A stretch of 776 nt of DNA from Escherichia coli. Lineage in GTDB: Bacteria; Pseudomonadota; Gammaproteobacteria; Enterobacterales; Enterobacteriaceae. Each line of letters starts with the position of its first letter. The first letter of the stretch is position 1. The DNA lies in NCBI RefSeq assembly GCF_003334255.1, contig NZ_QOWU01000189.1. One strand, written 5' to 3'. Made by a program: the position numbers. Positions 1-776 of the stretch are shown here, piece after piece.

Positions 1-776
1 AAAAAATGAGGTGCTTGCAGCAGATGAAATGAAAGAAACTATTCTTGATCGCGCGGCGCATCTAAGCTGCGCTTCACGGTTGAAAGAGCATCTTCAGCGG
101 CCTGAAGAAAAACGCCGCGATGAGCAGTTCGCGGCGTTTTACGATTATTGCATTGAAGTTACTCGCAGGAATTTTGTGAAGGCTTTTGAGGAGAGTAAAT
201 CTCTTCAGTAAGCTTAATGGCGGACGCTGCAATTAATTCAGGAAGGTCCGCAAGGTCATCTGTCAGTGGGAATGATGAAAAATCGGCGGCAGTTCTGTTA
301 AGAATTGCTTTAACTAATTCCTTTTCCTCATCCGGCAACACGTTGATTAGAGCTACGACTGCTTGCCTGAGTGCGATTAAATCAGCAAAAGTTTGTTTTG
401 GTAGATTTGGATAATCCATAGTCACCTCTGTGTTTATCAGATTGACATACCCTGGCCAGTGCCCACCACTGGCGGGGTGAAGGCTTAACATATCCAGGGA
501 TTCGGAACCGATAAATCCTGATAAATATCCATGAACGCAAAAATCAAATACGGCCTGTCGGCTGCCGTTCTGGCGCTGATTGCCGCAGGGGCTTCTGCGC
601 CTGAAATTCTCGACCAGTTTCTGGATGAAAAGGAAGGTAACCACACCACGGCATACCGTGATGGTGCAGGTATCTGGACCATCTGCCGTGGTGCCATCAT
701 GGTGGATGGCAAACCTGTCGTTCCGGGCATGAAGTTGTCGAAGGAAAAATGCGACCAGGTTAACGCCATTGAGCGT

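What the first reader, a model, noticed from the sequence alone, without database searches (positions are those of the whole stretch)
159..429. Compact stand-alone gene for an 86-aa highly acidic helical protein with unrecognised function
The gene has a near-consensus SD, a strong terminator and coding-like codon-position bias, but its product resembles no family I can recognise from sequence. The protein has net charge of about -7, three predicted amphipathic helices (KQTFADLIALRQAVVALINVL, EEKELVKAILNRTAADF, DDLADLPELIAASAIKLTEEIY) and no export signal. Small acidic helical cytoplasmic proteins next to phage lysis or late genes are often regulators, anti-sigma or antitoxin-like factors, DNA mimics or chaperones. 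Rarer codons (AGG, AGA, CTA, TTA) and lower GC suggest separate acquisition.
Basis: partly seen in the sequence, partly recalled or inferred. Interest (0 to 1): 0.6.

Follow-up and report, generated by a model that had tools for sequence, protein, structure and literature searches.

The report
Swappable antisense accessory gene in prophage
The 86-residue acidic protein gene is real and evolutionarily conserved, and it is one of at least eight unrelated genes (seven small ones of 79-104 residues and one of 210) that alternate at a single spot, pointing backwards, inside the cell-bursting gene cluster of E. coli and Salmonella prophages; what any of them does is still unknown.

Summary
Window 419->159 (minus strand) encodes an 86-aa protein (pI 4.3, net charge -7, three predicted helices). 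It has a near-consensus ribosome-binding site and a strong conserved terminator hairpin.

The window is identical to an E. coli lambdoid prophage. There the gene sits antisense between a YdfR-like gene and the endolysin gene.

Three diverged clades (E. coli, Salmonella, one unassigned) keep this frame under purifying selection (omega 0.21-0.36 at dS>1). Indels are all in frame. The start, the terminator and an upstream -35/-10-like element are conserved.

The gene is not fully stand-alone. A + strand YdfR-like ORF reads through the terminator and ends 53 nt inside the gene. Window 39-107 holds the remnant of a different cargo gene.

The site is a slot. Some prophages have it empty. Others carry one of at least eight unrelated cargo ORFs behind the same element.

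The protein belongs to PHROG 2572 (function unknown). Pfam, NCBIfam, PADLOC, PDB and fold searches gave nothing usable.

Best reading: a moron-type accessory gene whose product acts by binding another protein. The cassette anatomy is well supported. The function is only inferred.

The parts
159..419 (-). Coding sequence of the 86-aa acidic three-helix protein (stop codon at 161-159); PHROG 2572, RefSeq WP_001625288.1 'hypothetical protein'
   Evidence: purifying selection in this frame only; in-frame indels
422..429 (-). Shine-Dalgarno AGAGGTGA, GAGG core 5 nt upstream of the ATG; an SD (TAAGGA) precedes the start at the same place in the two other clades
104..140 (-). Intrinsic terminator of the gene: 12-bp stem (140-129 / 120-109), 8-nt loop, then a U-rich tail. 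It is conserved in all three clades, with compensatory changes in clade 3. It lies inside the + strand ORF, where it encodes EKRRDEQFAAFY.
455..473 (-). [quoted passage not shown] It sits at the junction between cassette and backbone. Every cargo type has a stem-loop at this position, with different sequences.
487..492 (-). -10-like hexamer TATGTT (TATTGT in the Salmonella clade)
   Evidence: not called by the consensus scan
510..515 (-). -35-like hexamer TTTATC, 17 nt from the -10, preceded by the A/T-rich ATATTTATCAGGA (528->516). Identity between the E. coli and Salmonella clades is 18/19 here, against 8/17 in the spacer and 64% in the CDS.
1..211 (+). C-terminal 70 codons of a 211-aa + strand ORF (YdfR/DUF1327 N-domain plus a long tail) that starts before the window. 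It reads through the terminator and ends 53 nt inside the 86-aa gene. PGAP annotates only its first 342 nt, as a 'YdfR family pseudogene'.
   Evidence: protein-level constraint on the tail is not shown (omega 0.45-1.3)
39..107 (-). Remnant of a different cargo gene (PHROG 18136 type). It encodes its last 22 residues, LQAAEDALSTVKRSLDAPRDQE, plus the stop. Window 1-20 is part of that gene's terminator.
   Evidence: many genomes match the window only from base 108 onward
531..776 (+). 5' part of the phage lysozyme (endolysin) gene of the late operon; it is a neighbour, not part of the cassette

Best explanation
**What it is (shown)**
- The feature is a real protein-coding accessory ('moron') gene carried by lambdoid prophages of E. 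coli and Salmonella.
- It lies antisense inside the late lysis cluster, inserted at the 3' end of the ydfR-like gene just upstream of the endolysin gene.
- That site is a slot. It is empty in some prophages and holds any of at least eight unrelated cargo ORFs in others. Seven are 79-104 aa and one is 210 aa.
- The conserved parts around the gene are a -35/-10-like element in the ydfR-lysozyme spacer (TTTATC-17 nt-TATGTT), a stem-loop in the region upstream of the start, a strong ribosome-binding site, and the gene's own conserved terminator hairpin.

**How it probably works (inferred)**
- These parts make an independent transcription unit: the element acts as its promoter, the stem-loop lies at the 5' end of the mRNA, and the hairpin ends the transcript.
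- Because it converges with the Q-dependent late operon, it is probably expressed when late transcription is off, meaning in the lysogen or early in infection.
- The product is a soluble, acidic, three-helix protein with a disordered Ser/Pro/Gln-rich tail and no catalytic or DNA-binding signature. It most likely acts stoichiometrically, by binding and blocking or modulating another protein.
- The turnover of unrelated cargos at one slot points to a role in phage-host or phage-phage conflict.
For: **Gene reality**
- The frame is open in all 19 distinct alleles. Omega is 0.21-0.36 at dS>1 between three clades, in this frame only.
- Indels are whole codons.
- It gives a full-length match to PHROG 2572, E = 3.6e-50.
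- It is annotated as a CDS by PGAP.
- It is present with at least 80% coverage in 294 of 5426 complete E. coli genomes and in 8 deposited phage genome records.

**Own terminator**
- Stability. Compensatory changes appear in clade 3.

**Promoter-like element**
- The UP/-35 part is 18/19 identical between the E. coli and Salmonella clades. The spacer is 8/17 identical and the CDS 64%.
- The Salmonella copies keep it although neither ydfR nor this lysozyme is adjacent.
- The same element precedes every cargo type.

**Slot**
- Empty-site alignment. K-12 Qin has ydfR abutting rrrQ.
- Nine ORF clusters lie behind the element, one of them an IS1 insertion.
- The cargos show no detectable homology to each other (hhalign probability at most 2.6%). 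Each has its own terminator.
- A sister cargo is present in 1112 of 5426 genomes.

**Composition and precedent**
- GC is 41.8% against 53.7% for the lysozyme gene.
- Own-promoter genes antisense to late genes are described as the signature of prophage accessory loci (PMC7067206).
Against: - There are no transcription or translation data.
- The promoter-like element matches the sigma-70 consensus at only 7 of 12 positions and was not called by the consensus scan.
- The element also exists in a prophage with an empty slot. It could therefore be backbone sequence conserved for another reason, such as endolysin expression.
- Within E. coli, selection looks weak (omega about 0.3-0.8 on few substitutions).
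- Seven IMG/VR loci have ATG changed to ACG and two carry truncated copies. The gene is therefore dispensable.
- The protein-binding role rests only on size, charge, predicted helices and the absence of other signatures.
- The model is of modest confidence (pLDDT 70.8, pTM 0.43) and no fold or profile search gave a lead.
Confidence: 0.6

Rival explanations
1. The gene works as a pair with the + strand ORF it overlaps. The acidic protein would bind or antagonise the C-terminal tail of the long YdfR-like late protein, like an antidote or a lysis-timing modulator. The convergent overlap would enforce either/or expression.
For: - In all three clades an opposite-strand ORF is open through the terminator and stops 53-59 nt inside the gene.
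- Its last ~45 residues are recognisably similar across clades.
- In some loci the tail is a separate 67-73-aa ORF starting right at the stop of the upstream late gene.
- K-12 YdfR binds the RNase E catalytic domain and may bind RNA (PMC13232886). The neighbour is therefore itself a regulator candidate.
Against: - The tail shows no clear protein-level constraint (omega 0.45-1.3).
- Its conserved residues coincide with the terminator hairpin and the overlap, which are constrained anyway.
- In the window, part of the tail is simply the antisense of a dead cargo remnant.
- The other cargo types have different tails.
- O157 prophages keep the KRRDEQFAAFYDYC stretch without the 86-aa gene.
Confidence: 0.12
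2. The active product is the RNA, not the protein. The transcript would be a cis-antisense RNA to the late operon. It would damp leaky late or endolysin expression in the lysogen, or exclude related superinfecting phages.
For: - The transcript is fully complementary to the late mRNA and overlaps the 3' end of the ydfR-like ORF.
- There is a stem-loop at the predicted 5' end and a strong terminator.
- Precedent: STnc6030, an own-promoter RNA antisense to late genes of prophage BTP1, mediates superinfection exclusion (PMC7067206).
Against: - Purifying selection acts on the amino-acid sequence (omega 0.21-0.36 with saturated synonymous sites).
- The SD and start are conserved and indels are in frame.
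- At dS>1 the RNA sequence itself is poorly conserved (58-67% identity).
- There is no Rfam match.
- An RNA role could still coexist with the protein role.
Confidence: 0.1
3. It is a hitch-hiking ORF without a current function. It would be carried along by recombination at a hot spot and be slowly decaying.
For: - The family is narrow: E. coli, Salmonella and one unassigned clade.
- Constraint within E. coli is weak.
- Start-codon loss and truncated copies occur.
- The slot contains dead remnants of other cargos and an IS1 insertion.
Against: - The ORF, its SD, its terminator (with compensatory changes) and the upstream element have all survived divergence to dS>1 in three lineages.
- It is intact in most of the 57 IMG/VR loci and is annotated as a CDS at most of the sampled places among the 294 E. 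coli genomes.
Confidence: 0.1
4. It is not a gene, and one of the opposite-strand frames (11-211 or 217-414) is the real coding sequence of this stretch.
For: Frame 11-211 is indeed part of a long + strand ORF. Frame 217-414 shows lowish omega (0.33-0.58) between clades.
Against: - The 11-211 ORF covers only the last 53 nt of the gene.
- The 217-414 frame carries 2-3 stops in every clade. Its omega is higher than that of the annotated frame in every between-clade pair.
- By established knowledge rather than a test here, a lowish omega is expected for an antisense frame whose third codon positions coincide with those of the true frame.
Confidence: 0.02

Closest known systems
Lambdoid 'morons' such as lambda bor and lom or HK97 gp15 (extra genes with their own promoter and terminator in the late region; from established knowledge, Hendrix/Juhala concept, and PMC7067206)
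   Same: - It is an extra transcription unit embedded in the late region and is absent from otherwise collinear prophages.
- It has lower GC and its own terminator.
- It is antisense to the late operon next to the lysis genes, as bor is.
   Different: - bor, lom and gp15 are exported or membrane proteins with known roles (serum resistance, adhesion, superinfection exclusion). This product is cytoplasmic and acidic, with no known role.
- Here one site holds at least eight alternative cargos behind a shared promoter-like element. That is not part of the classical moron description.
Anti-CRISPR / anti-defence loci of temperate phages (from established knowledge)
   Same: Unrelated, small, often acidic proteins alternate at one fixed position inside a late or structural region and are driven by a dedicated promoter. 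They act as stoichiometric protein inhibitors.
   Different: - Those loci are co-oriented with their neighbours and are followed by an aca helix-turn-helix regulator. Here the genes are antisense and no regulator gene is adjacent.
- There is no sequence or fold similarity to any known inhibitor.
- Activity is untested.
Gifsy-type antirepressors GfoA/GftA/GfhA (PMC3121763)
   Same: They are small proteins encoded outside the immunity region with their own promoter, and they act by binding another phage protein. They occur in Salmonella and E. coli lambdoid prophages.
   Different: - Those genes lie next to the dinI homologue downstream of the replication genes and are under a LexA box.
- No CTG-N10-CAG LexA box was seen on reading the upstream sequence.
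- No sequence similarity to them is known.
STnc6030, antisense RNA of prophage BTP1 (PMC7067206)
   Same: It is an own-promoter transcript antisense to late genes, is expressed in the lysogen, and overlaps the 3' part of a late gene.
   Different: STnc6030 is non-coding and acts by base pairing. Here the ORF is under purifying selection and has a strong ribosome-binding site.
PHROG 2572 (protein family of unknown function)
   Same: Full-length match (residues 1-86 to profile positions 1-86 of 86, E = 3.6e-50). The Salmonella-type and clade-3 homologues match it too.
   Different: Nothing; this is the family itself. It carries no functional annotation.

Membership tests
PHROG 2572 | Significant full-length match to the family HMM | tested here: met
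   E = 3.6e-50, 169 bits, residues 1-86 on profile 1-86/86. P0019 gives 3.5e-27 and P0020 gives 8.5e-40.
Moron (accessory transcription unit in a prophage late region) | Present in some and absent from other otherwise collinear phage genomes | tested here: met
   - Empty site in AR_0017 and in K-12 Qin.
- 33 of the IMG/VR loci examined lack the -10-like hexamer; all those whose sequence was displayed carry no cargo ORF there.
Moron (accessory transcription unit in a prophage late region) | Own transcription terminator | tested here: met
   Hairpin with U-tail, -31.7 kcal/mol, z = -4.5. It is conserved, with compensatory changes.
Moron (accessory transcription unit in a prophage late region) | Own promoter, active independently of late transcription | tested here: inconclusive
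   - A conserved TTTATC-17-TATGTT element shows a hexamers-conserved, spacer-variable pattern.
- It matches the consensus at only 7/12 positions, was not found by the scan, and is also present at an empty site.
- Activity is not testable here.
Moron (accessory transcription unit in a prophage late region) | Base composition different from the neighbours | tested here: met
   GC is 41.8% against 53.7% for the lysozyme gene.
Pfam DUF1823 (the name given in phage records PV340545 and others) | Match to PF08853 above threshold | tested here: not met
   i-E-value 0.042, 14.5 bits, covering 30 residues only. The label in the deposited phage records is not supported.
Type II toxin-antitoxin antitoxin | Co-oriented adjacent toxin gene in one operon, and a DNA-binding or toxin-binding domain of a known antitoxin family | tested here: not met
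   - The gene is monocistronic between its promoter-like element and its terminator.
- Both neighbours are on the other strand.
- There are no Pfam, NCBIfam or PADLOC hits.
Anti-defence (Acr-like) locus | Unrelated small proteins alternating at one conserved position | tested here: met
   At least eight cargo families occupy the position, with hhalign probability at most 2.6% between them.
Anti-defence (Acr-like) locus | Adjacent aca-type helix-turn-helix regulator | tested here: not met
   No such gene lies between the holin and the lysozyme or next to the Salmonella copies.
Anti-defence (Acr-like) locus | Inhibition of a defence system | not testable with these tools
   This needs phage plating or biochemical assays.
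Known anti-phage defence systems (PADLOC) | Match to a defence-protein HMM | tested here: not met
   0 families for the window protein and for both distant homologues.
LexA-controlled antirepressor (Gifsy/186 Tum type) | LexA box at the promoter, and a position next to dinI or the early region | tested here: not met
   - No CTG-N10-CAG box was seen on reading window 420-540 or the homologous leaders.
- The gene lies in the lysis cluster, not next to dinI.

The most novel reading that the evidence does not exclude
The ydfR/endolysin junction of lambdoid prophages is a hypervariable conflict locus, analogous to anti-CRISPR loci. A resident antisense promoter would express whichever small cargo has landed there. 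Each cargo, including this 86-aa acidic protein, would be a stoichiometric inhibitor of a different host defence or of a competing phage's protein. That would make PHROG 2572 a new inhibitor family and the slot a way to discover more.
Probability: 0.2. Interest if true: 0.75.

Novelty: new member of a known kind. Interest (0 to 1): 0.45.

Why it matters
- The gene is found in about 5% of complete E. coli genomes, and a sister cargo of the same slot in about 20%. None of the cargo families has a known function.
- Recognising that they share one insertion site and one promoter-like element turns a list of scattered 'hypothetical proteins' into a defined, testable locus. The cargos are expressed against the direction of the lysis genes.
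- Such loci in other phages have yielded exclusion factors and defence inhibitors.
- The analysis also corrects annotation. The label 'DUF1823' in deposited phage records is unsupported.
- The 'YdfR family pseudogene' of RefSeq is the front of an intact 211-aa open reading frame.
- Part of the window is a relic of another cargo gene.

Tried and rejected
**Searches on the 86-aa protein that gave no function**
- Pfam: only DUF1823 at E = 0.042 and ABATE at 0.16.
- NCBIfam and PADLOC: no hits.
- PDB sequence profile: best E = 3.6.
- Rfam on the window: no match.
- Two AlphaFold2 models: pLDDT 67.4 and 70.8.
- Foldseek against PDB and BFVD: no hit at E <= 0.001.

**Reach of the family**
- An exhaustive HMM search of 1.84 billion representatives found only two true distant clades.
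- It also returned two long repeat proteins (P0021 and P0024, with 7-8 repeated stretches), which I regard as repeat or low-complexity artefacts.

**Ideas tested and dropped**
- All small cargos are remote homologues of each other: rejected, because hhalign probabilities are at most 2.6%.
- It is a Gifsy-type LexA-controlled antirepressor: rejected, because those genes lie next to dinI and no LexA box was seen here.
- The promoter-like element belongs to the cassette only: corrected, because the empty-site alignment shows it is backbone sequence. The Salmonella copies nevertheless carry it along.

**Scans and literature that added nothing**
- A genome-contig scan with the 19-mer gave E. coli plus chance matches in unrelated taxa.
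- Literature searches by accession, PHROG id and phage names found nothing on this protein.
- The short promoter-leader megablast is too identity-dependent to count slot occupancy, so I did not use it.

Full report
**1. The observation**

- AGAGGTGA at 429->422 places a GAGG core 5 nt before the ATG.
- Eighteen bases after the stop lies a 12-bp stem with an 8-nt loop (140->109), followed by a U-rich tail. The 86-nt region folds at -31.7 kcal/mol, z = -4.5, and no shuffle out of 200 was as stable.
- The tool's simple terminator scan reported only the smaller hairpin at 108->91.
- The product has pI 4.34 and net charge -7. The gene is 41.8% GC against 53.7% for the lysozyme gene next to it.
- AlphaFold2 predicts three helices (8-27, 30-48, 56-74) and a disordered tail, at modest confidence (pLDDT 70.8, pTM 0.43).

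So the description is accurate.

**2. Where it sits**

The window is 100% identical to two E. coli chromosomes. At least 80% of it is found in 293 of 5426 complete genomes.

In strain STEC2018-607 the late-region order is:
- Q antiterminator, then a SASA esterase, DUF1378, DUF826 and a class II holin;
- a 'YdfR family pseudogene';
- this gene, on the opposite strand (WP_001625288.1, hypothetical protein);
- lysozyme, spanin and terminase.

The same arrangement is seen in four other genomes and in deposited phages.

**3. Is it a gene?**

Close homologues are all from E. coli. An exhaustive profile search of 1.84 billion representative proteins added only two diverged groups, P0019 and P0020. 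A second word-indexed search shows that the P0019 group is from Salmonella enterica. I call these groups clades 2 and 3; they are 41-49% identical to the window protein.

The evidence for coding is as follows.
- Between clades, synonymous sites are saturated (dS 1.0-1.8) while omega is 0.21-0.36 in the annotated frame. In the five other frames omega is 0.33-3.3.
- Every other frame carries 2-12 stops in every clade.
- All length differences are whole codons.
- The start codon with a Shine-Dalgarno sequence is at the same place in all clades.

The gene is real.

**4. The transcription unit**

The terminator hairpin is present about 20 nt after the stop in all three clades. In clade 3 both arms have changed in a compensatory way (AACGCCACC...GGTGGCGTT).

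Upstream there is one block conserved across all clades: ATATTTATCAGG(A/C) TTTATC, a 17-nt spacer, then TAT(G/T)(T/G)T.
- Between the E. coli and Salmonella clades the first 19 nt are 18/19 identical.
- The spacer is 8/17 identical, the next 20 nt are 9/20, and the coding sequence is 64% identical.

This pattern of conserved hexamers and free spacer is that of a promoter. The match to the sigma-70 consensus is only 7/12, however, and the scan did not call it. I therefore treat it as a candidate promoter.

From a start about 7 nt past the -10, every version of the leader begins with a 6-10-bp stem-loop of differing sequence.

**5. Not quite stand-alone**

The + strand frame listed as 11-211 is the end of a 211-aa ORF that begins right after the holin gene (L001 7576-8211).
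- Its first ~113 residues are the YdfR/DUF1327 domain.
- The rest is a tail that reads through the terminator hairpin (encoding EKRRDEQFAAFY) and stops 53 nt inside the 86-aa gene.
- In every intact locus of all three clades an opposite-strand ORF does the same, with 53 or 59 nt of overlap. It is fused to different N-terminal parts, or stands alone as a 67-73-aa ORF.
- The tail nevertheless shows no clear protein-level constraint (omega 0.45-1.3). Its conserved residues coincide with the hairpin and the overlap.

I therefore leave open whether the tail is functional.

In addition, window 39-110 (minus) translates to FLQAAEDALSTVKRSLDAPRDQE*. This is the C-terminus of a different small protein (PHROG 18136) found in this position in other prophages. 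Window 1-107 is thus a relic of another cassette. That explains why many genomes match only from base 108.

**6. A slot with many cargos**

Alignment with a prophage that lacks the gene shows about 550 nt inserted at the 3' end of ydfR. The insertion lies between imperfect direct repeats CCACC(G/A)NNGG. In K-12 Qin, ydfR abuts rrrQ directly.

The promoter-like element lies on the backbone side of the junction and is present at the empty site too. The Salmonella copies, however, sit after the spanin gene and before the terminase genes, with a GH19 endolysin, and they still carry the element.

I scanned IMG/VR with the 19-mer and obtained 120 loci.
- 71 have the -10-like hexamer followed by a Shine-Dalgarno sequence and an ORF.
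- These fall into nine clusters, one of which is an IS1 insertion.
- The cargos are a 90-aa protein (PHROG 2411, 40 loci), a 104-aa protein (PHROG 1853, 10 loci), the 86-aa protein (9 loci), proteins of 91, 98, 79 and 95 aa, and a 210-aa protein in O157:H7 that PGAP leaves unannotated in the strain examined.
- Each has its own terminator.
- They are not detectably related to each other (hhalign at most 2.6%).
- None has a known function in PHROGs, NCBIfam, Pfam or PADLOC.

The 90-aa cargo is in 1112 of 5426 complete E. coli genomes. The 86-aa gene is in 294.

**7. Searching for a function**

The protein matches PHROG 2572, 'unknown function', over its full length. Nothing else gave a lead.
- Pfam, NCBIfam and PADLOC gave no significant hit.
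- The PDB sequence search gave none.
- Foldseek against PDB and viral models gave none.

The 'DUF1823' label in some phage records rests on a sub-threshold hit (E = 0.042). No paper mentions the protein.

**8. Most likely mechanism**

Shown:
- an independent, conserved gene with its own ribosome-binding site and terminator;
- antisense placement in the late operon;
- a presence/absence polymorphism;
- alternative cargos at one site;
- lower GC than the neighbours.

This is the architecture called a moron. Own-promoter genes antisense to late genes are described as the signature of prophage accessory loci (PMC7067206).

Inferred:
- The gene is transcribed from the conserved element when Q-dependent late transcription is silent.
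- The product is small, soluble, acidic and helical, with no enzymatic or DNA-binding signature, so it probably acts by binding another protein.
- The turnover of unrelated cargos suggests a role in phage-host or phage-phage conflict.

I put about 0.6 on this overall reading. That breaks down as near certainty for the gene, about 0.8 for the cassette and about 0.3 for the binding and conflict role.

Rivals:
- a functional pair with the YdfR-like tail (0.12);
- an antisense-RNA role (0.10; precedent STnc6030, but protein-level selection argues against RNA-only);
- a functionless hitch-hiker (0.10);
- not a gene (0.02).

**9. Comparison with known systems**

It works like a lambdoid moron (bor is likewise antisense next to the lysis genes). 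It differs in product type and in the multi-cargo slot.

The alternation of unrelated small acidic proteins at one position resembles anti-CRISPR loci. Orientation differs, however, and no aca regulator is present.

It is not a Gifsy-type antirepressor. Those lie next to dinI under LexA control (PMC3121763), and no LexA box was seen here.

The neighbour's N-domain family, K-12 YdfR, was recently reported to bind the RNase E catalytic domain and possibly RNA (PMC13232886). This is a lead for the pair hypothesis, not evidence.

**10. Verdict**

The finding is correct as an observation and ordinary in kind: an uncharacterised prophage accessory gene already catalogued as PHROG 2572. The added value is the slot with a shared promoter-like element and many cargos. 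That makes a set of widespread hypothetical proteins experimentally approachable.

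Noticed in passing
window 39-110 (minus strand) and window 1-20: This is a relic of a different cargo gene. The stretch translates to FLQAAEDALSTVKRSLDAPRDQE*, the C-terminus of the 91-aa PHROG 18136 protein that occupies the same slot in other prophages. Window 1-20 is part of that gene's terminator. It explains why many genomes match the window only from base 108.
   Followed up: yes
L001 7576-8211 (window 1-211, + strand): RefSeq annotates only the first 342 nt as a 'YdfR family pseudogene, missing C-terminus', but the frame is open for 211 codons. 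Deposited phage records call the same ORF a 183-211-aa protein (PHROG 2091). Whether the long form is made is unknown.
   Followed up: partly
L001 about 7905-7920 and window about 462-472: The ~550-nt insertion, relative to an empty site, is flanked by imperfect direct repeats CCACC(G/A)NNGG. Both derive from the ydfR codons for ...KTPP. The right-hand copy forms half of the inverted repeat in the leader. This suggests gain and loss by recombination between short repeats.
   Followed up: partly
L011 814-1446 (minus strand), E. coli O157:H7 NE122: The same slot holds an unannotated ORF of about 210 aa (start MLIYPAADL after AGGAGA), with no Pfam, PHROG or PADLOC match. It sits behind the same promoter-like element and stem-loop. 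The + strand YdfR-like ORF overlaps it by about 250 nt.
   Followed up: partly
L038 and six other IMG/VR loci; L060, L061: Seven loci have the start codon ATG changed to ACG, leaving only a GTG two codons upstream inside the Shine-Dalgarno sequence. Two loci carry truncated copies. These are signs that the gene is dispensable in some prophages.
   Followed up: no
L162 (IMG/VR): An IS1 element (InsA ORF) has inserted into the 104-aa cargo gene of the same slot.
   Followed up: no
window 510-530 and 531: The lysozyme gene has no recognisable Shine-Dalgarno sequence. Its ATG is preceded by GATAAATCCTGATAAATATCC, two GATAAA repeats 10 nt apart, and this is the same DNA as the -35/UP part of the antisense promoter-like element. 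In K-12 Qin the lysozyme start instead overlaps the ydfR stop.
   Followed up: no
window 442-447 (+ strand): A perfect TTGACA hexamer faces the lysozyme gene, but the best -10 candidate 17 nt downstream (ACCACT) is poor. I did not pursue it.
   Followed up: no
L073 4633-4791 (+), Salmonella prophage: A 52-aa ORF was called in the same orientation about 200 nt upstream of the Salmonella homologue. It lies upstream of the promoter-like element, and its relation to the cassette is unknown.
   Followed up: no
PV340545 and related phage records (L002): The deposited annotation names the 86-aa protein 'DUF1823 containing protein'. The Pfam match is below threshold (E = 0.042 over 30 residues).
   Followed up: yes
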